From the sequence record PZ179883.1: 64,000 nt of DNA, one strand, 5' to 3'. Source of the stretch: a phage. How positions within the stretch are numbered: position 1 is the first letter of the stretch; each line of letters opens with the position of its first letter. Shown one piece after another: positions 42,271 through 50,040 of this stretch. Made by a program: the position numbers and the translations under genes. Under the pieces are notes generated by a model, which made no database searches, had not been told where the DNA came from, and was given only the letters and a program-made list of their open reading frames with translations.

Positions 42271-42272
<2 letters not shown>
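42236..42272 (-). promoter_or_regulatory. Early promoter upstream of denV
   Basis: TTTACT N18 TACTAT; its position supports the denV start at MTRINL. Confidence 0.5.
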
Positions 42273-43073
<801 letters not shown>

Positions 43074-43529
43074 TTAAAAGAGGCTGTTCATTATTCGGTA
43101 AAGTGAAGGGCCCATCACATATTGCCACTGAGTACGAGGAATAAGGGCAAAAGCATCCATCTCTGGAATCATAACACCATCTTTATTTTCAAAATAAGAC
43201 TCGCAATGGCAATTTCTAAACATCTCATGCTCTACTGGAATCGTATAATAAAATAACTGTAAGTCTTTATTACTAGAATATTTAAATACACCTAGGTCTT
43301 CTAGAAGGTCTGGATTATAATTGCTAAAACCAGTCTCTTCTAAACATTCTCTTCGTGCTGCATCTAGTGCGTTTAAATCAGAATTTTCTACACGGCCTTT
43401 TGGAATATCCCAGCGATGTGCCATCATTCCAGGCTTACGAGAACCAGTAACCCGTCCCATGAATAAATCTTTATCTTCTGTCATAAAGATAATACCAGCT
43501 GATAATGTTTTCATTTTAATTTCCTGCAT
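43074..43529 (-). CDS. nudE: Nudix hydrolase NudE
   Basis: 151 aa; Nudix box GRVENSDLNALDAARRECLEETG; position after e. Confidence 0.85.
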   Translation of the reverse strand: MQEIKMKTLSAGIIFMTEDKDLFMGRVTGSRKPGMMAHRWDIPKGRVENSDLNALDAARRECLEETGFSNYNPDLLEDLGVFKYSSNKDLQLFYYTIPVEHEMFRNCHCESYFENKDGVMIPEMDAFALIPRTQWQYVMGPSLYRIMNSLF

Positions 43530-43999
43530 TCAATGATAAAGTTATTTAAATTTTGAGTATATTTCTTTTCATCAAAAATCTTTTGTTGTCTGCGTAGCCG
43601 CCATGGCATTTCGATGAACACACACCATATTCCTGATAGTATTGCTGCTGTCAAAATATTAACAAGTATGATTAAAAGAATCCAATCTCCCGTTCTGCCT
43701 ACTGGACTTTCTCCAAAGAAGCAAAATACAAATGATGTCACAGGAAAACTAATAATGTACCACAGAATCATAATTTTATCTGTGAACCAATCAGCGTTCG
43801 TTAATTTAGCGCGACCATTATGAATACATACGAATTTATCATCTGTTGCAGTAGATGGCTTAACTGGTTGATATCCCATTCTAAACTCCCTAATCAGCAA
43901 ATTTTTCATATCTTCGGAACAGCCATTCCAGTCAACTCTATCAACTGGAATGCCATCATCCCCATCATCTAAATCATACCAGCGAGTTTTTAAAATCAT
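43511..43999 (-). CDS. Membrane protein, member of a 3-gene tandem family
   Basis: 162 aa; transmembrane segments; C-terminus FIIECRKLK. Confidence 0.4.
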   Translation of the reverse strand: MILKTRWYDLDDGDDGIPVDRVDWNGCSEDMKNLLIREFRMGYQPVKPSTATDDKFVCIHNGRAKLTNADWFTDKIMILWYIISFPVTSFVFCFFGESPVGRTGDWILLIILVNILTAAILSGIWCVFIEMPWRLRRQQKIFDEKKYTQNLNNFIIECRKLK

Positions 44000-44358
44000 C
44001 TGATTTTCCTACAATCACTCACAAACTCTTTCATTGATTCATTTTCAATATAAGACATGTAGCTATTATATTCTTTTAATTGTATTTTGTAATCCTTTTT
44101 TCTTTGCCAATTTATTTTAAAATTATCATAATGAAAATATAGAATGATACAAAAGAATGAAAATAATGAAATAATTTTAGTATAGCGAAGTTCACTCCAA
44201 ACTTCTATTATATTTACTGTGCCATCGATGTTTAAAATAAGACAGTCAATTAACAATCCAAAAAGACTACCCGCAAGAGCTGCAGCCAACGCCACAGCAA
44301 AAATTAAAAATGACTCAGGAAGCGAATATTTGACTTTATTTAGTTTTGGCTTTTGCAT
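43996..44358 (-). CDS. Membrane protein, tandem family member
   Basis: 120 aa; C-terminus EFVSDCRKIR. Confidence 0.4.
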   Translation of the reverse strand: MQKPKLNKVKYSLPESFLIFAVALAAALAGSLFGLLIDCLILNIDGTVNIIEVWSELRYTKIISLFSFFCIILYFHYDNFKINWQRKKDYKIQLKEYNSYMSYIENESMKEFVSDCRKIR

Positions 44359-44753
44359 CGTGATTCCTTAACAAATTTCATAATTTCATCAAATTCATAC
44401 GCAGCAAGTTTAAGCTGATATTCCTTTTTAATCTTTTTACACTGTGCTTTCCAATCACGTACACGTTTACGATAATGTCTTCCTTGATACCAGTATCCTA
44501 CCCAATTTACAGGTACTAATAAAAGTGGAACTATTAATGGAAGAATTAGCATTAACACAAGTATTTCGCCAGAATCAATATCAGTCATAACATCTAAAAC
44601 ACCTCCAATAATCAATAGAATTACAAATGATATGAGTATAACAGGACCTATTAACACATCAGTAGAAATTATCTGACGCTTTGGTTCATACTTCACAGGT
44701 TTACTTGGAAGGTATAGTGATGGTTTTGACATATTCTCTACATTCCTTAACAA
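44340..44753 (-). CDS. Membrane protein, tandem family member
   Basis: 137 aa; C-terminus MKFVKESRCKSQN. Confidence 0.4.
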   Translation of the reverse strand: MLRNVENMSKPSLYLPSKPVKYEPKRQIISTDVLIGPVILISFVILLIIGGVLDVMTDIDSGEILVLMLILPLIVPLLLVPVNWVGYWYQGRHYRKRVRDWKAQCKKIKKEYQLKLAAYEFDEIMKFVKESRCKSQN

Positions 44754-45309
44754 ATTTTTCTAGTAATAAATCACTTTCAAAATTGGGATTTTCTACAAAT
44801 TTATCAAAAAGATCATCAACAATAGTTAAGATATTCTTTTTACTAAGAATACGTTTATTTTCATGCTTCGTTTCAGAATCAACTATAAGAGTAAAGAAAT
44901 ATTTCTTGCCCTGAAATTTTACAGTAGTATCAATATAAAATAAATTTGACTTTTGTAAATTACGTTTAAACCATGCGTCACTTAAACTATAAATGCCAAG
45001 ATAATCATAATCGTCGTTTAAATAACAAACTGTCCATTCAGGAGAAATGAAATCAGTAAATTCAACATCAAAATCACATGTCAATGAATGAATTGATTCA
45101 ATACTGTTAATAAGTATTCCAGGACGTATTAAGGACTTTTTACCTCTATAAAATCTTCCAGAAAGACTTTCGTCAGTTTCATACGAAGACCCCCAATAGT
45201 AATTACGCCCTTCTGCCATACGTTTAAGAGCATTTAGTAATTGGTCTGGAACATCAACATGTCTTTGGAACTCTTCAAACATTGAATTGAAATCATTTTG
45301 CATTCTCAT
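44701..45309 (-). CDS. Hypothetical protein
   Basis: 202 aa ORF. Confidence 0.4.
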   Translation of the reverse strand: MRMQNDFNSMFEEFQRHVDVPDQLLNALKRMAEGRNYYWGSSYETDESLSGRFYRGKKSLIRPGILINSIESIHSLTCDFDVEFTDFISPEWTVCYLNDDYDYLGIYSLSDAWFKRNLQKSNLFYIDTTVKFQGKKYFFTLIVDSETKHENKRILSKKNILTIVDDLFDKFVENPNFESDLLLEKFVKECREYVKTITIPSK

Positions 45310-45328
45310 TCCTATTTACTCCAAGTAT

Positions 45329-45346
45329 AAGGGGCCGAAGCCCCTT
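45329..45346 (-). terminator. C(UUCG)G tetraloop hairpin
   Basis: aaggggccgaagcccctt. Confidence 0.55.
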
Positions 45347-45350
45347 ATCA

Positions 45351-45944
45351 TTATTTCAGAGAATTAATGTATTCCTGAACATCAGCAGAGGTAGTTTCAA
45401 CCCCAGAAATATTACCGTTAAAGGTTTCAACTCGAGCAAGGGTATCTTCAATATCAACCTTAGTCAGTGCTGCAATTTCAACTACATCATCGGCAGTACT
45501 AATTCCAAGGGCATTTGCTGCACGAGTTTCACGGATATATTCCAATTTAACCGCAAGTTCTTGACGAGCATCATCTAACTCAACTACTTTCTTGGCGATT
45601 TCAATTCGCATTTCAGCATAACCGTCAGCCTTAGTAGTCAACTGCTCAGCTGTTCGACGATATAGTAAACCGAGTTTAGCATGCATTGTTACATCTTGGC
45701 CTTCGGAAAGAAGTTTACGAATTTCACGCTCTTTTGATTCGGCCTGTCGATTCTTTTCGATAACAAGTTCACGAATACGTTTTTCTTCGTTAATAGATTT
45801 AACAGAAGCAGTTTTTAGATCTTTAATTTTATCAAGTAGTTTTGCTGCTGCAGCAGTATACTGTTCTTCGACAGATAGATTTTTAGCCATAGCAGAACCA
45901 AGTTTAGTGCGAATAAACTCAACAATTTTCTTCAGTGTGTTCAT
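45351..45944 (-). CDS. Coiled-coil protein, possibly PspA/IM30-like
   Basis: 197 aa, almost entirely helical heptads; general resemblance to PspA; weak. Confidence 0.3.
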
Positions 45945-46045
45945 AGTATTTCCTTAGGTTAATTGAGATTTAAAATCCGTAGGAGTATAATACTCTATCG
46001 TCAAATTATAGGCTCATAATATCTCAATCATGAGCCTGCGTAAAC

Positions 46046-46309
46046 TTATTTCATATTATTGAAATATTCTTCTGCGATTTCGTCGTTATCATGGTAAACT
46101 TTAGAAGACAGTTTAACATAACCTTCTGCTGTGAACATATTAATCACAACTTTTACAGTATACCACTGACCGTCTTCATTACCCATTACTGCGTAAGTTT
46201 CAAACATCGGATGGTCAGGACCGATGACTTTAATATCATTCACTGTACGACCGAAATCTTCTGAAACGCATTTCATAAAGAAGTTGAACAGTTCGCCGTA
46301 ATTATCCAT
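46046..46309 (-). CDS. Hypothetical protein (start adjusted; ORF-track N-terminus overlaps an early promoter)
   Basis: Internal MDNYGELFNFF start with GGAG; about 87 aa. Confidence 0.4.
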   Translation of the reverse strand: MDNYGELFNFFMKCVSEDFGRTVNDIKVIGPDHPMFETYAVMGNEDGQWYTVKVVINMFTAEGYVKLSSKVYHDNDEIAEEYFNNMK

Positions 46310-46348
46310 TTCATTCTCCAAGTTGTTTTCTGTATCAGTAGTTGATAG

Positions 46349-46405
46349 TTGTATAGTACCATGGAAGAACAGAGATGTAAACAGTTTTGTGAAAAAATTT
46401 TTAGG
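46349..46405 (-). promoter_or_regulatory. T4-type early promoter
   Basis: TTTACA N17 TACTAT; near-identical to the 5305 copy including the UP element. Confidence 0.6.
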
Positions 46406-46538
46406 GAATTCTAGGGCAGGGATGGGCAATTAAAGGATAGGATAATATATTATAAAGGGTATAAACTAAATGATGCCTAGAGAGGTCCAGAAAGGCCTAG
46501 ATACCAAAAAGCCCTATCATTTAGATAGGGATTTAAAA

Positions 46539-47102
46539 TTATTTACCTAGTTTACTTATTATAGCTTCTGCAGCAGCTTTTAGCTTAGATGCAGTGTTAA
46601 TACGATTTTTAATTTCAGTATACGCATCGCCAAGAACATCAAGGCTATCAGAATAAACACTTACACTATTGCGTTCGCTATTTGAAATAGAACCTTTAGT
46701 TTTGCGGTCAAAATCGGTGTACACGTCTTGAAGATCGCGGGCTGCCTTCTTTGCATCATCCAATGCATCAAGAGCTTTATTCAAAGCATTAACGTATTTT
46801 TTAGTGTCGAACATATTCTTAGAAATTTTAACAGGTGCGCGTTCAGGAGTAGCTAACACAGATTTAGGAACCTGAGCGCCAGATGCCAATTTCTTAGAAA
46901 TTTTGAAAAATGCTTTATTGAATTTATTTTCTTGACTCATTGTAAAAGAACTATTATCGATGTTGTACATTTCAATAGCTTTAGCTTTCCACTTAAGAAA
47001 ATCGCCGCGGTCTTTTGGGTCCAATTGGAAGAATACTTTAGTAAGATCTGCTTCAGATGGTAATTTTGCTGCTTCGGTTAAAAATTCGGCATAGGTTTTC
47101 AT
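46539..47102 (-). CDS. Internal protein with capsid-targeting leader (possibly IPIII-like)
   Basis: Begins MKTYAEFLTEA; 187 aa, close to T4 IPIII size. Confidence 0.55.
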   Translation of the reverse strand: MKTYAEFLTEAAKLPSEADLTKVFFQLDPKDRGDFLKWKAKAIEMYNIDNSSFTMSQENKFNKAFFKISKKLASGAQVPKSVLATPERAPVKISKNMFDTKKYVNALNKALDALDDAKKAARDLQDVYTDFDRKTKGSISNSERNSVSVYSDSLDVLGDAYTEIKNRINTASKLKAAAEAIISKLGK

Positions 47103-47227: not shown

Positions 47228-47701
47228 TCATTTGATTTGTTTAGCAGACCAAATGCGGTCTTTAATAATTTTTTGGATGTCTTCAACATACTCAAGAGAG
47301 TGAACATGTGGATTATCTTTGAAACTATAAGCACGGGCTAACTTTTGGCCTTCGGTTTTGATTACTAAAAGCTCTTTAAGGATAGCTTCATATTTAGCGA
47401 TAATTCCTTTAACGATATTTTTTTCTTGTGCCGCTTTAGGATCTGCTTTAGGAGCAGGTTTACCCGAAGCCTTTGCAAAAGCAGCGCCAGTAGCAACTAA
47501 ACTTTTCCAGGCCATACTAACTGCATTTCCCGTAAATCCTTCCGCTTTCATGTCGCGTGCAAACTGGAATCGCGATTCATCAGAAGCATCTTTATAGGAA
47601 TATTTACCCGCGGCAATGGCAGCTTTTGCAACAGCTTGAATTTCGGTGCTAGATGCTTCATTTAACACCGCTTCATTTAAAAATTGAGTATATGATTTCA
47701 T
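47228..47701 (-). CDS. Internal protein with capsid-targeting leader (start adjusted)
   Basis: Internal start MKSYTQFLNEA; ORF-track N-terminal extension reads through a terminator hairpin; late promoter TATAAATA upstream. Confidence 0.5.
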   Translation of the reverse strand: MKSYTQFLNEAVLNEASSTEIQAVAKAAIAAGKYSYKDASDESRFQFARDMKAEGFTGNAVSMAWKSLVATGAAFAKASGKPAPKADPKAAQEKNIVKGIIAKYEAILKELLVIKTEGQKLARAYSFKDNPHVHSLEYVEDIQKIIKDRIWSAKQIK

Positions 47702-47739
47702 CTTATTTCCTGTTTTAATTTGTAGATTTAATATACTAA

Positions 47740-47747
47740 TATTTATA
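47740..47747 (-). promoter_or_regulatory. Late promoter (TATAAATA) upstream of an internal-protein gene
   Basis: Plus-strand tatttata about 35 nt upstream of the MKSYTQFLNEA start. Confidence 0.55.
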
Positions 47748-47750
47748 CCA

Positions 47751-47781
47751 AAAAGCCCCAACCTTTCGGTCGGGGCTAAGC
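47751..47781 (-). terminator. Rho-independent terminator, identical copy 2
   Basis: Same 31 bp sequence, downstream of the stable RNA/tRNA region. Confidence 0.7.
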
Positions 47782-47825
47782 CTTGCGGCAACCTTGTCGG
47801 GGTTCCACCTGCTAAGGCAAGTGTT

Positions 47826-48083
47826 TGTACGAAACGCCGGGATTCGAACCCGGTTATTAAGTAGTTGACGCTACTCAATATTTTTAAAAGGCCATATCTC
47901 GACCATATCCGAACGTTCCGTCAAAAACGCTACTCGGCTTACGGCAAAGATATTTCCTCGAATCGATAATTCGGTGCGCCGTTTCTGCTGTGATAGTAAA
48001 GAGCCAGAACACAGTAAAACTGTGGGAGGAAACTATACTCCAGGGAACATCAGTCCGACGACTTACCGGTAGCGACCCGGTTT
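47826..48083 (-). ncRNA. Putative stable small RNA region with a tRNA-like 3-prime module
   Basis: Minus strand has a canonical T-arm (CCGGG-TTCGAAT-CCCGG) and a 5 bp stem/7 nt loop, but no matching 5-prime acceptor strand; boundaries uncertain. Confidence 0.3.
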
Positions 48084-48451: not shown

Positions 48452-48527
48452 TGGTCGAGGCAGTAGGGATCGAACCTACGACCTAGGACTTAGAAGGTCC
48501 TTGCTCTTCCTTCTGAGCTATGCCCCG
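48452..48527 (-). tRNA. tRNA-Arg (anticodon UCU), CCA encoded
   Basis: Hand-folded cloverleaf: acceptor CGGGGCA, anticodon loop CUUCUAA, T-arm GTAGG-TTCGATC-CCTAC. Confidence 0.8.
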
Positions 48528-48530
48528 TAA

Positions 48531-48612
48531 TTGGGGTGACCGATGGGAGTCGAACCCATGACTACGAGAATCACAATCACAATCTCGAGTTCTACCAACT
48601 GAACTACGGCCA
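48531..48612 (-). tRNA. Atypical tRNA-like gene: His-type (GUG) with a 6 nt tandem duplication giving a 13 nt anticodon loop; possible pseudogene
   Basis: Canonical acceptor, D- and T-arms and C73 discriminator; anticodon stem CGAGA/TCTCG encloses TTGTGATTGTGAT instead of 7 nt. Confidence 0.5.
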
Positions 48613-48727
48613 CATTAATACCTACTCCAACAATCAAGATGTCTTCACACGAAATTAAGAGAAGAGTGATCAGTTCAACCCCTATAATCGCGTCAAGTAG
48701 ATATTAATGTGACAGTTGTCACAAATT

Positions 48728-48802
48728 TGGCGGACGTGATAGGATTCGAACCTATAACCAATCGCTTAACAGGCGATCGCTCTGCCATTGAGCTACACAT
48801 CC
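48728..48802 (-). tRNA. tRNA-Asn (anticodon GUU), CCA encoded
   Basis: Hand-folded: anticodon stem ATCGC/GCGAT, loop CUGUUAA, T-arm ATAGG-TTCGAAT-CCTAT. Confidence 0.75.
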
Positions 48803-48806
48803 AAAT

Positions 48807-48894
48807 TGGTGGGGAGTGGTGGAGTCGAACCACCCGAGTCGCAATGACAATGGATTTACAGTCCACACCGCTACCTCTACGGGATAACTCCCCA
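48807..48894 (-). tRNA. tRNA-Tyr (anticodon GUA), class II with long variable arm
   Basis: 88 nt; anticodon loop CUGUAAA; T-arm GGTGG-TTCGACT-CCACC. Confidence 0.75.
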
Positions 48895-48902
48895 AATTAA
48901 TT

Positions 48903-48977
48903 TGGTGGCCCTGGGTGGAATTGAACCACCATCTGGCGATTATGAGTCGCTTGCTTGAACCTTCCAGCTACAGGGCC
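48903..48977 (-). tRNA. tRNA with CAU anticodon (Ile2/lysidine-type or elongator Met)
   Basis: Anticodon loop CUCAUAA; T-arm GGTGG-TTCAATT-CCACC; T4 tRNA-Ile equivalent by position. Confidence 0.7.
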
Positions 48978-48978
48978 T

Positions 48979-49054
48979 TGGTGCTGATTGACGGAATCGA
49001 ACCGCCGACCTTCTCATTACAAGTGAGTTGCTCTACCTACTGAGCTAAATCAGC
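48979..49054 (-). tRNA. tRNA-Thr (anticodon UGU)
   Basis: Anticodon loop CUUGUAA; acceptor GCTGATT/AATCAGC; CCA encoded. Confidence 0.8.
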
Positions 49055-49059
49055 AAAAC

Positions 49060-49149
49060 TGGCGGAGGCGATAGGATTTGAACCTATGAGTCGCCGGAGC
49101 GACTGCCGGTTTTCAAGACCGGTGCATTAAACCACTCTGCCACGCCTCC
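49060..49149 (-). tRNA. tRNA-Ser (anticodon UGA), class II
   Basis: 90 nt; anticodon stem CCGGT/ACCGG, loop CUUGAAA; long variable arm. Confidence 0.8.
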
Positions 49150-49151
49150 AG

Positions 49152-49225
49152 TCTCCGTGGCAGGATTTGAACCTACGACATTCTGCTCCCAAAGCAGACG
49201 CTCTACCAAACTGAGCTACACGGAG
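49152..49225 (-). tRNA. tRNA-Pro (anticodon UGG), 3-prime CCA not encoded
   Basis: Anticodon loop UUUGGGA; abuts tRNA-Ser, like the T4 Pro-Ser dimeric precursor. Confidence 0.8.
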
Positions 49226-49235
49226 TAAATTAAAT

Positions 49236-49309
<74 letters not shown>

Positions 49310-49314
49310 AAATT

Positions 49315-49401
49315 TGGTGCGAGAAGTGGGACTCGAACCCACAAGGAAATCATTCCGCAGCATTTTAAGTGCTGTGCCTTTACCAATTTGACCATTCTCG
49401 C
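49315..49401 (-). tRNA. tRNA-Leu (anticodon UAA), class II
   Basis: 87 nt; anticodon loop CUUAAAA; T-arm GTGGG-TTCGAGT-CCCAC; CCA encoded. Confidence 0.8.
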
Positions 49402-49407
49402 TCTATA

Positions 49408-50040
49408 TTATTTATTACGTGAAAAAGATTGTTCTATCAATTCTGGACACTTTCGTTCTATCCATTTTCTAGCTTTTTGTGGGCTTATACCTATTATTTT
49501 AGCAGCTTTACTAACCCATCCAAATTTAGAATAATCGATTTTAACTAATTCTTCGTAAATTTCATCAGTTAAAATCTTTTCATTAATATTTACCAGTAAA
49601 TGATATAATTTATTATCATTAGCAATTTTAATGAATCTTTTATAGTTTCCGCCTTTACTTAAACCTAATGAAGTAATTGCAGATGATATAGTAGCCGAAT
49701 TTAATAATGCGTTTAAAATTTCTTCATCACTAACATTATAACGCTTTTTATTATTTTTAATATTTTTACCAGCAAAAGTATCAGTTTGCGAATGGCAATT
49801 TGGACATAATAATCTTAAATTTGATTTAAGATGATTTTTGTTATTTCCATCAATATGGTCTAATTGCAGAACAATATGCTTATTTTGCCATTTTGAAATT
49901 TTACAAATTGCACACTCATATGGAAAAATATTTTCTTTTATTATTTTGTCTTTCAGCTTTCCTGTACTAAAATTTGGATGTTTTCCTTCAAAAATTTCAG
50001 CTAATTTAGTATCCATAATATAATTCCCAATTATTAACAA
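49408..50040 (-). mobile_element. HNH homing endonuclease
   Basis: 210 aa; LQLDHIDGNNKNHLKSNLRLLCPNCHSQTD is an HNH motif with zinc-binding cysteines; helix-turn-helix-like C-terminus; ends 6 nt from tRNA-Leu. Confidence 0.7.

What the first reader, a model, noticed from the sequence alone, without database searches (positions are those of the whole stretch)
45351..45944. Long coiled-coil protein with loose PspA/IM30-like character
The 197 aa ORF is almost entirely heptad-patterned helix with an amphipathic N-terminus, in the lysis-adjacent e.x region. A membrane-remodelling PspA/Vipp1/ESCRT-III-like protein could stabilise the inner membrane during lysis inhibition or against membrane-disrupting abortive-infection effectors. 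The resemblance is weak.
Basis: inference. Interest (0 to 1): 0.4.

Follow-up and report, generated by a model that had tools for sequence, protein, structure and literature searches.

The report
Phage T4 e.6: divergent PspA-like protein
This conserved, early-expressed T4-type phage gene of unknown function (e.6) appears to be a very diverged relative of the bacterial membrane-protecting protein PspA/Vipp1, so the phage may carry its own "phage shock protein"; what it actually does has not been tested.

Summary
The ORF is real: 45351-45944, minus strand, 197 aa, 98% identical to T4 e.6. T4 omics data class e.6 as early RNA / middle protein. AlphaFold predicts an N-terminal cationic amphipathic helix, a long helical hairpin (residues 25-80 and 86-145) and short conserved C-terminal helices. 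This is the PspA/Vipp1/ESCRT-III layout.

The T4 protein and its close clade give no significant direct hit to PspA. Homology shows only through intermediates:
- T4 clade to an Ackermannviridae-containing clade: hhalign 99.8%.
- That clade to PspA/Vipp1: 90%, against 0.3% for a reversed control.
- Two of its members pass Pfam's PspA_IM30 cut-off, and one GenBank record already names its copy "PspA/IM30 family protein".
- The whole-family profile ranks Vipp1 first in the PDB (E=1.9e-4) and beats 2000 heptad-shuffled decoys.

The likeliest function, inferred only, is inner-membrane binding and stabilisation during infection. I class it as a new, divergent member of a known kind, of moderate interest.

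The parts
45351..45944 (-). e.6 coding sequence (197 aa plus stop codon), a divergent PspA/IM30-like protein
   Evidence: ORF list. 98% identical to T4 e.6. phrog_1203, unknown function, E=1.6e-87. Homology chain to PspA/IM30.
45879..45938 (-). Residues 3-22: N-terminal cationic amphipathic helix, the alpha0 equivalent and putative membrane-binding element
   Evidence: Helix in both AF2 models, at low positional confidence. muH 0.45 and net charge +3. Cationic in 39 of 40 members. Aligns with PspA/Vipp1 alpha0 from residue 1.
45705..45872 (-). Residues 25-80: helix alpha1, first arm of the hairpin
   Evidence: AF2 pLDDT about 90. Aligned to PspA/Vipp1 alpha1.
45690..45704 (-). Residues 81-85: hairpin tip (E-G-Q-D-V)
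   Evidence: Break between the helices in both models. G82 aligns with the Gly at the Vipp1 hairpin tip.
45510..45689 (-). Residues 86-145: helix alpha2/alpha3, second arm of the hairpin
   Evidence: AF2 pLDDT about 90. Aligned to Vipp1 residues up to about 147.
45420..45509 (-). Residues 146-175: elbow with G147 (98% conserved) and short alpha4-like helices ending in the conserved R-V-E-T-F motif
   Evidence: Conservation analysis. The global hhalign pairs RVETF with PspA/Vipp1 alpha4 'RFE(S/R)(F/M)E', but this region is not significant on its own.
45354..45389 (-). Residues 186-197: conserved C-terminal helix (Y192, L196), possibly the alpha5C equivalent
   Evidence: AF2 helix 186-196. Y192 is 95% and L196 88% conserved. 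Pairs with Vipp1 'ELAALKA' in the global alignment, not significant alone.
45951..45955 (-). Shine-Dalgarno sequence AAGGA, 6 nt upstream of the ATG
   Evidence: Read directly from the sequence. Identical in T4.
46016..46045 (-). Early-type sigma-70 promoter match, (G)TTTACG-N17-TATTAT, directly after the e.7 stop codon
   Evidence: Consensus scan. GTTTAC...TATTAT is also present upstream of T4 e.6. T4 e.6 RNA is classed as early. This is a consensus match only; the transcription start was not mapped here.
45327..45348 (-). GC-rich stem-loop (UUCG loop on the mRNA strand) between the e.6 stop codon and the e.5 start codon
   Evidence: The inverted repeat was picked up by the terminator scan (listed on the + strand). 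On the coding strand no T-run follows it, so it is more likely an RNA-stability or processing element than a terminator (inference).

Best explanation
The ORF encodes the T4 e.6 protein. It is a compact (197 aa), highly diverged phage branch of the PspA/IM30(Vipp1) family within the ESCRT-III superfamily. What is shown: it is a real, conserved, early-expressed protein; its predicted architecture is alpha0, an alpha1/alpha2-3 hairpin and short C-terminal helices; and it is linked to PspA/Vipp1 by sequence profiles through intermediate phage sequences. What is inferred: soon after infection e.6 binds the anionic inner membrane through its cationic amphipathic alpha0. The hairpins pack side by side, and the conserved C-terminal helix contacts a neighbour's hairpin tip, as in Vipp1 Interface 1. 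The resulting carpets or rods would seal a stressed membrane and preserve proton-motive force. The rationale rests on my own knowledge of T4 biology. T4 shuts off host transcription, so the sigma54-dependent host psp response cannot be induced. Yet the phage needs an energised, intact membrane after its own DNA injection, during superinfection, and to avoid premature holin triggering. A phage-encoded PspA would fill that gap. My confidence in the homology is about 0.85, and in the membrane-stabilising function about 0.4-0.5.
For: Reality and expression. Architecture: AF2 hairpin at residues 25-145 with pLDDT about 90, matching the PspA hairpin at aa 24-142 that Liu et al. 2021 call the family hallmark (PMC8281802). 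Alpha0 is amphipathic and cationic. Sequence evidence: (i) six of 40 family members hit Pfam PF04012 collinearly from the N-terminus, and P0066 (39.0 bits) and P0065 (35.1 bits) exceed the 33.9-bit gathering score. Both were retrieved over their full length by the T4-clade profile at E about 1e-21 to 1e-20. (ii) hhalign gives T4 clade vs Ackermannviridae-containing clade 99.8% (P=1.4e-28); that clade vs PspA/Vipp1 90.1% (P=1.6e-6, 137 columns; reversed control 0.3%); and whole family vs PspA/Vipp1 88-91% (reversed 1.9-2.9%). (iii) The family profile ranks Vipp1 first among 177,635 PDB sequences, E=1.9e-4, aligned 1-146 to 1-147. (iv) It scores Synechocystis Vipp1 at 25.0 bits, against a mean of -3.8, sd 2.6 and maximum 7.9 for 2000 heptad-block shuffles, and -4.6 for the reversed sequence. 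(v) Foldseek's top nine PDB hits are all Vipp1, followed by CdvB2 and PspA. In the viral library, Snf7-family and PspA/IM30-family proteins come directly after e.6's own relatives. (vi) GenBank QMV34086.1, the Kuttervirus homolog, is annotated 'PspA/IM30 family protein'. Plain tblastn with P0066 reaches genes named e.6 (RB43 2e-15, phiAS4 1e-10). The elbow and C-terminal helices are the most conserved segments, consistent with a conserved assembly interface.
Confidence: 0.55

Rival explanations
1. e.6 is a PspA mimic that acts on the host Psp machinery instead of on the membrane. It would bind PspF, PspB/C or host PspA polymers as a decoy or dominant-negative. That would silence or hijack the host envelope-stress response, or remodel the envelope, for example for superinfection exclusion.
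For: It shares the hairpin with PspA; from my own knowledge, that is the region of E. coli PspA that contacts PspF. The phage encodes no psp partners of its own. A truncated gain-of-function host PspA was reported to alter envelope composition and phage adsorption in Klebsiella (PMC12234005).
Against: E. coli PspA is among the weakest matches to the e.6 family profile (5.6 bits, against 25.0 for cyanobacterial Vipp1). That is not what mimicry of the host protein predicts. From my own knowledge, T4 already shuts off host transcription, which makes repression of PspF largely redundant. The family is also present in phages of Aeromonas, Klebsiella and Salmonella, with very divergent sequences.
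Confidence: 0.13
2. e.6 is an anti-defence protein. It would neutralise membrane-targeting abortive-infection effectors by patching the lesions they make. Alternatively, it would act as a decoy substrate or sponge for defence components that use host PspA, such as the CBASS Cap2-mediated conjugation of the cyclase to PspA.
For: It is early-expressed, conserved yet fast-evolving, and has no conserved neighbours, a pattern typical of accessory host-takeover genes. In a Bacillus CBASS system the cyclase is conjugated specifically to PspA and released on infection (PMC11153139).
Against: There are no hits to PADLOC defence-related models. No known anti-defence family matched. The CBASS-PspA link was shown in Bacillus, not in T4's hosts. 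There is no experimental hint for e.6.
Confidence: 0.12
3. e.6 is a generic helical-hairpin or coiled-coil protein whose similarity to PspA/Vipp1 is convergent (an amphipathic N-terminal helix plus heptad repeats). Its role would be unrelated to membranes, for example as a scaffold or regulator of a replication or transcription complex.
Against: Heptad-block-shuffled and reversed decoys never approach the real score. The alignments are collinear from residue 1 over 137-168 columns. Two members pass a curated Pfam threshold. Foldseek's 3Di+AA ranking puts Vipp1 in the first nine places.
Confidence: 0.12
4. e.6 is a 'host specificity protein', meaning a virion or tail component, as many GenBank and UniRef records label it.
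For: Only the label itself, carried by numerous records. One BFVD relative is labelled 'tail completion protein'.
Against: PHROGs lists the family as unknown function. e.6 is an early gene. The predicted all-helical hairpin has no similarity to tail-fibre or host-specificity proteins. No evidence supports the label, which looks like propagated misannotation.
Confidence: 0.02

Closest known systems
Vipp1/IM30 (Synechocystis sll0617, Nostoc Vipp1; PDB 7O3W, 6ZVR, 8QFV)
   Same: Best sequence-profile and Foldseek match. Same order of elements: amphipathic alpha0, alpha1/alpha2-3 hairpin at the same residue numbers, a Gly at the hairpin tip, and an elbow followed by short C-terminal helices.
   Different: About 17% identity. 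e.6 is 197 aa, against about 260-270 aa for Vipp1. It lacks alpha6 and has a much shorter alpha4/alpha5 region. It is phage-encoded and early-expressed. Polymerisation and membrane binding have not been shown.
E. coli PspA (PF04012; PDB 4WHE)
   Same: Same family and architecture. The alpha0 motif is similar, most clearly in the Ackermannviridae-type members ('KRIFR(I/V)xEANVN' against PspA 'SRFADIVNANIN'). The linker motif (S/T)-P-E-(D/E) in many e.6 relatives sits at the position of PspA 'D-P-Q-K'.
   Different: The host protein matches the e.6 profile only weakly (5.6 bits), so this is not a recent capture from the host. There are no pspF/B/C-type partners, and no evidence that e.6 regulates transcription.
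Kuttervirus (Ackermannviridae) 'PspA/IM30 family protein', e.g. QMV34086.1 of Salmonella phage vB_SentM_sal1; P0065/P0066
   Same: Clear homologs of e.6 over the full length (hhalign 99.8%; tblastn). Same size of about 200 aa and the same C-terminal motifs (VDxxxxxxETF, YLxSL).
   Different: Only about 24% identical to the window protein. These copies still pass Pfam's PspA_IM30 threshold, whereas T4 e.6 does not. They are followed by a membrane protein (phrog_11433) rather than by e.5.
Eukaryotic/archaeal ESCRT-III (Snf7, CHMP1B, CdvB2)
   Different: No detectable sequence similarity. The phage has no Vps4-type ATPase or MIM motif. e.6 has the bacterial-type alpha0.

Membership tests
PspA/IM30 (Pfam PF04012) as currently delimited | The protein itself scores above the Pfam gathering threshold (33.9 bits) | tested here: not met
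   The window protein has no PF04012 hit even at E<=10, and none of the 30 T4-clade orthologs does. This is an operational threshold, not a biological feature. Two distant homologs pass it (39.0 and 35.1 bits) and four more hit below it.
PspA/IM30-ESCRT-III superfamily | Statistically supported sequence homology to PspA/Vipp1, direct or through intermediates | tested here: met
   The chain is T4 clade to Ackermannviridae-containing clade at 99.8%, then to PspA/Vipp1 at 90.1% (reversed controls 0.4% and 0.3%). Whole family vs PspA/Vipp1 is 88-91%. Vipp1 is the top PDB hit at E=1.9e-4. Decoy test: 0 of 2000. Caveats: detection is transitive only, and the PspA profile was shallow.
PspA/IM30-ESCRT-III superfamily | Hairpin motif formed by helix alpha1 and the conjoined alpha2/alpha3 (PspA aa 24-142), the family hallmark per Liu et al. 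2021 | tested here: met
   AF2 gives helices 25-80 and 86-145 packed as a hairpin, pLDDT about 90, in two independent runs. This is a prediction, not an experimental structure.
PspA/IM30 (bacterial branch) | N-terminal amphipathic helix alpha0 that mediates membrane binding | tested here: met
   Helix 3-22 is predicted. muH is 0.45, against 0.42 for PspA and 0.57 for Vipp1, with net charge +3. It is cationic in 39 of 40 members, mean muH 0.41. Membrane binding itself was not tested.
PspA/IM30-ESCRT-III superfamily | Elbow, alpha4 and alpha5, with alpha5C binding a neighbour's hairpin tip (Interface 1, essential for polymerisation) | tested here: inconclusive
   Short helices at 151-159, 166-170 and 186-196 follow near-invariant G147 and are the most conserved parts of the protein. 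A global alignment pairs RVETF and Y(L/I)xSLK with the alpha4 and alpha5C motifs, but the region is not significant alone (P=0.016, against 0.042 reversed).
PspA/IM30-ESCRT-III superfamily | Structural similarity that is specific to the family | tested here: inconclusive
PspA/IM30-ESCRT-III superfamily | Homo-polymerisation into rings, rods or carpets, and membrane remodelling or protection | not testable with these tools
   This needs purified protein (EM, liposome assays) or at least multimer modelling. Only monomer prediction was available.
E. coli-type Psp stress-response system | Genetic and functional coupling to PspF (a sigma54 activator) and the membrane partners PspB/PspC | tested here: not met
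   No such genes occur nearby. Neighbours are T4 e.x ORFs of unknown function with no Pfam psp domains. The gene downstream of e.6 belongs to three different PHROGs in three phage groups. e.6 is therefore a stand-alone PspA-like gene and not part of a Psp system.

The most novel reading that the evidence does not exclude
T4-like and Vi-like phages carry their own ESCRT-III-type membrane-repair polymer. It would be expressed within minutes of infection and replace the host phage-shock response that the phage itself has made uninducible. It would keep the inner membrane sealed and energised after DNA injection, under superinfection (resistance to lysis from without) and through prolonged lysis inhibition. 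It might also blunt membrane-puncturing abortive-infection effectors. This would be the first functional ESCRT-III-superfamily protein described in a bacteriophage.
Probability: 0.35. Interest if true: 0.75.

Novelty: new member of a known kind. Interest (0 to 1): 0.55.

Why it matters
T4 is the best-studied virulent phage, yet about half of its genes, including the whole e.1-e.8 block, have no function. Placing e.6 in the PspA/Vipp1/ESCRT-III superfamily turns a 'conserved hypothetical' gene into a directly testable hypothesis about how a lytic phage manages the host inner membrane and proton-motive force. The gene is present in more than 1000 sequenced Straboviridae and Ackermannviridae genomes. 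From my own knowledge, several classical T4 observations lack identified effectors: membrane resealing after injection, resistance to lysis from without, and the stability of lysis-inhibited cells. The finding also extends the ESCRT-III superfamily into bacteriophages. A compact 197-aa version could be a useful minimal model for polymer assembly. On the practical side, it corrects a widely propagated 'host specificity protein' misannotation.

Tried and rejected
- **Single-sequence searches.** The window protein against Pfam, NCBIfam and PDB sequences gave only sub-threshold coiled-coil noise or nothing. The T4-clade alignment alone was also insufficient.
- **Building a deep PspA profile.** Both search for homologous proteins and the search for related loci, seeded with E. 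coli PspA plus Vipp1, listed only near-identical enterobacterial PspAs. I made do with a shallow profile (13 Enterobacterales PspAs plus Synechocystis Vipp1, read from PDB alignments).
- **hhalign against a single PspA sequence.** It gave only 32% probability, covering just alpha0 and the start of alpha1.
- **AFDB50 fold search.** The library was unavailable.
- **Conserved partners.** I looked for a conserved partner, a PspB/C analogue or a link to lysis genes, and found none. The e.5-GAP161_245 similarity (E=0.008) was not confirmed by PHROG assignment.
- **PADLOC.** There were no meaningful hits.
- **Literature.** Searches by gene name, accession, locus tag, UniProt id and 'phage PspA/ESCRT' terms found no study of e.6 or of any phage-encoded PspA. 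The Miller et al. 2003 T4 genome review is not held.
- **Rejected readings.** The 'host specificity protein' label has no supporting evidence. The 'lysis-adjacent' reasoning fails because e.6 is early and its synteny with e is not conserved.

Full report
**1. Observation**

It has a strong ribosome-binding site. The window is a Tequatrovirus genome segment. The order along the minus strand is denV, e (lysozyme), nudE, e.2-e.5, this ORF, e.7/e.8-like ORFs and a tRNA cluster.

The protein is 98% identical to T4 e.6 (NP_049742.1, 'conserved hypothetical'). It belongs to phrog_1203, unknown function. tblastn finds it in 1100 phage records.

It is a real, expressed protein. The supplementary tables of a time-resolved T4 transcriptome/proteome study class e.6 as 'early RNA / middle protein' (PMC9697503). 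In agreement, an early-type promoter match (GTTTAC-N17/18-TATTAT) follows the e.7 stop codon in both this phage and T4.

**2. Shape**

Two AlphaFold2 runs were made, with 30- and 58-sequence alignments (mean pLDDT 74.8 and 81.2). Both give the same architecture:
- an N-terminal helix (3-22) whose position is uncertain;
- a long antiparallel hairpin (25-80 and 86-145) at pLDDT about 90;
- short helices after a near-invariant Gly147, ending in a C-terminal helix (186-196).

The 'long coiled coil' is therefore an intramolecular hairpin.

The N-terminal helix is amphipathic (muH 0.45; PspA 0.42 and Vipp1 0.57 on the same scale) and cationic (+3). It is cationic in 39 of 40 relatives. The elbow and C-terminal helices are more conserved than the hairpin itself.

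**3. Is it PspA-like? Direct tests fail**

The window protein alone hits nothing significant in Pfam, NCBIfam or PDB sequences. The 30 T4-clade orthologs give only scattered coiled-coil noise. A T4-clade profile against a PspA/Vipp1 profile is no better than a reversed control (4.9% against 12%). An exhaustive profile search of 1.84 billion representatives finds just 45 relatives. The full-length ones are all about 200 aa, the rest are fragments, and none is a bacterial PspA.

**4. Indirect tests succeed**

The distant relatives recovered bridge the gap.
- Six of 40 family members hit Pfam PspA_IM30 collinearly from the N-terminus. Two (P0066, 39.0 bits; P0065, 35.1 bits) exceed the curated 33.9-bit cut-off.
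- P0066 is encoded on T4-like/Vi-like phage contigs next to UvsX and a DnaB-type helicase.
- Its close relatives are in Kuttervirus and other Ackermannviridae. One GenBank record (Salmonella phage vB_SentM_sal1, QMV34086.1) already calls the gene 'PspA/IM30 family protein'. Plain tblastn with P0066 reaches genes named e.6 in RB43 (2e-15) and phiAS4 (1e-10).
- hhalign scores each link: T4 clade to this clade 99.8% (P=1.4e-28, 198 columns); this clade to PspA/Vipp1 90.1% (P=1.6e-6, 137 columns, residues 5-146 to 2-144); whole family to PspA/Vipp1 88-91% over about 168 columns. Reversed-profile controls give 0.3-2.9%.
- The family profile puts Vipp1 first among 177,635 PDB sequences (E=1.9e-4, 1-146 aligned to 1-147). 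An unrelated prefoldin coiled coil at 7e-4 shows that the noise floor is close.
- To control for coiled-coil bias, I scored the family HMM against decoys. Real Synechocystis Vipp1 scores 25.0 bits. The 2000 heptad-block shuffles give a mean of -3.8, sd 2.6 and maximum 7.9, and the reversed sequence gives -4.6.

**5. Structure comparison is only partly helpful**

Foldseek's top nine PDB hits are all Vipp1, followed by archaeal CdvB2 and PspA, but the best E-value is 1.3e-3. In the viral library, a Megaviridae Snf7-family protein and an Acinetobacter-phage PspA/IM30 protein follow directly after e.6's own relatives.

**6. Comparison with the family definition**

Liu et al. 2021 (PMC8281802) name the alpha1 + alpha2/3 hairpin (PspA aa 24-142) as the hallmark. 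It is followed by an elbow, alpha4 and alpha5, and alpha5C binds a neighbour's hairpin tip (Interface 1). That contact is essential for polymerisation.

e.6 has the hairpin at the same residue numbers, and it has alpha0. Its C-terminal part is shorter. A global alignment pairs the conserved 'RVETF' with alpha4 'RFE(S/R)(F/M)E', and 'Y(L/I)xSLK' with alpha5C '(E/Q)LAALKA'. That region is not significant on its own, so the assembly interface remains an inference.

There is no Psp-system context. Neighbours are not conserved: the downstream genes fall in three unrelated PHROGs. There are no psp domains and no PADLOC hits.

**7.

'Lysis-adjacent' does not hold as an argument. e.6 is early, while (from my own knowledge) lysozyme e is late. 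In RB43/GAP161 the gene lies near nrdD/nrdG, and in Kuttervirus among replication genes.

**8. Mechanism**

Shown:
- a conserved, early-made phage protein;
- a PspA-type predicted architecture;
- profile-level homology through intermediates.

Inferred:
- membrane binding via alpha0;
- ESCRT-III-like polymerisation;
- protection of the inner membrane and proton-motive force during infection.

The rationale rests on my own knowledge of T4 and Psp biology. The host psp operon needs new sigma54-dependent transcription, which T4 abolishes. Meanwhile T4 needs an energised membrane, and its holin fires prematurely on depolarisation.

The rivals are a PspF/PspBC decoy, an anti-defence role (including interference with CBASS cyclase-PspA conjugation; PMC11153139), and a convergent coiled coil. 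None of these is excluded. The 'host specificity protein' label is unsupported.

**9. Novelty**

No paper in the searchable library mentions e.6 or a phage-encoded PspA. Database auto-annotation already recognises the Ackermannviridae homolog and an Acinetobacter-phage protein as PspA/IM30.

So this is a new, highly divergent member of a known family. It is newly linked to a classic T4 gene and is not a new kind of system. Interest is moderate (0.55): the homology is well supported, while the biology is wholly untested but readily testable.

Noticed in passing
window 46539-47102 (-), 47228-47878 (-, internal Met60), 42271-42567 (-): Three ORFs begin, or have an internal Met followed by, MK(T/S)Y(A/S/T)(E/Q)FL(T/S/N)E. 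This resembles the capsid-targeting sequence of T4 internal proteins (MKTYQEFIAE, recalled from memory). The first two are paralogs (both phrog_2280) in the position of T4 e.8. The third replaces ipII/ipIII between denV and e. They may be packaged internal proteins, possibly anti-restriction cargo.
   Followed up: no
window 43511-45309 (-): e.2, e.3, e.4, e.5: e.2, e.3 and e.4 each have two predicted transmembrane segments. Together with soluble e.5 they end in a shared C-terminal motif, F(V/I)x(E/D)(C/S)R(K/C). Their reading frames overlap, which suggests translational coupling. This looks like a small paralogous membrane-protein family just downstream of the PspA-like gene. No conserved linkage to e.6 was found in distant phages.
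   Followed up: partly
window 45327-45348: A GC-rich 9-bp stem with a UUCG tetraloop (on the mRNA strand) sits between the e.6 stop codon and the e.5 start codon, with no T-run after it on the coding strand. It is probably an RNA stability or processing hairpin rather than a terminator.
   Followed up: no
window 48452-49401 (-) and 49408-50040 (-): A cluster of 10 tRNA genes, against 8 in T4. It includes Asn, Tyr and Met, plus one aberrant ARAGORN call ('tRNA-???' with a two-base anticodon, 48532-48613). An HNH-type endonuclease-like ORF follows directly (motif HIDGNNKNH...CPNCH).
   Followed up: no
GenBank/UniRef records of e.6 orthologs (e.g. hits H17, H20, H23, H38; P0003, P0034, P0037): Many e.6 orthologs are labelled 'host specificity protein', and one BFVD relative is labelled 'tail completion protein'. 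Nothing in the sequence, fold or expression timing supports these labels, so they look like propagated misannotation.
   Followed up: partly
L086 3567-4139 (Kuttervirus); L003 7391-7951: In Ackermannviridae the PspA/IM30-like gene is followed immediately by a predicted membrane protein (phrog_11433, 'membrane protein'). Whether it is a functional partner, analogous to PspB/C, is unknown.
   Followed up: no
window 46046-46429 (-) compared with T4 e.7; intergenic 45945-46045: The e.7-e.6 spacer is about 40 nt longer here than in T4 and contains an extra inverted repeat (GGCTCAT...ATGAGCC) that overlaps the promoter-like site. The listed e.7-like ORF starts at a TTG and is 127 aa, but only residues 41-127 match phrog_2678. 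The true start is probably further downstream.
   Followed up: no
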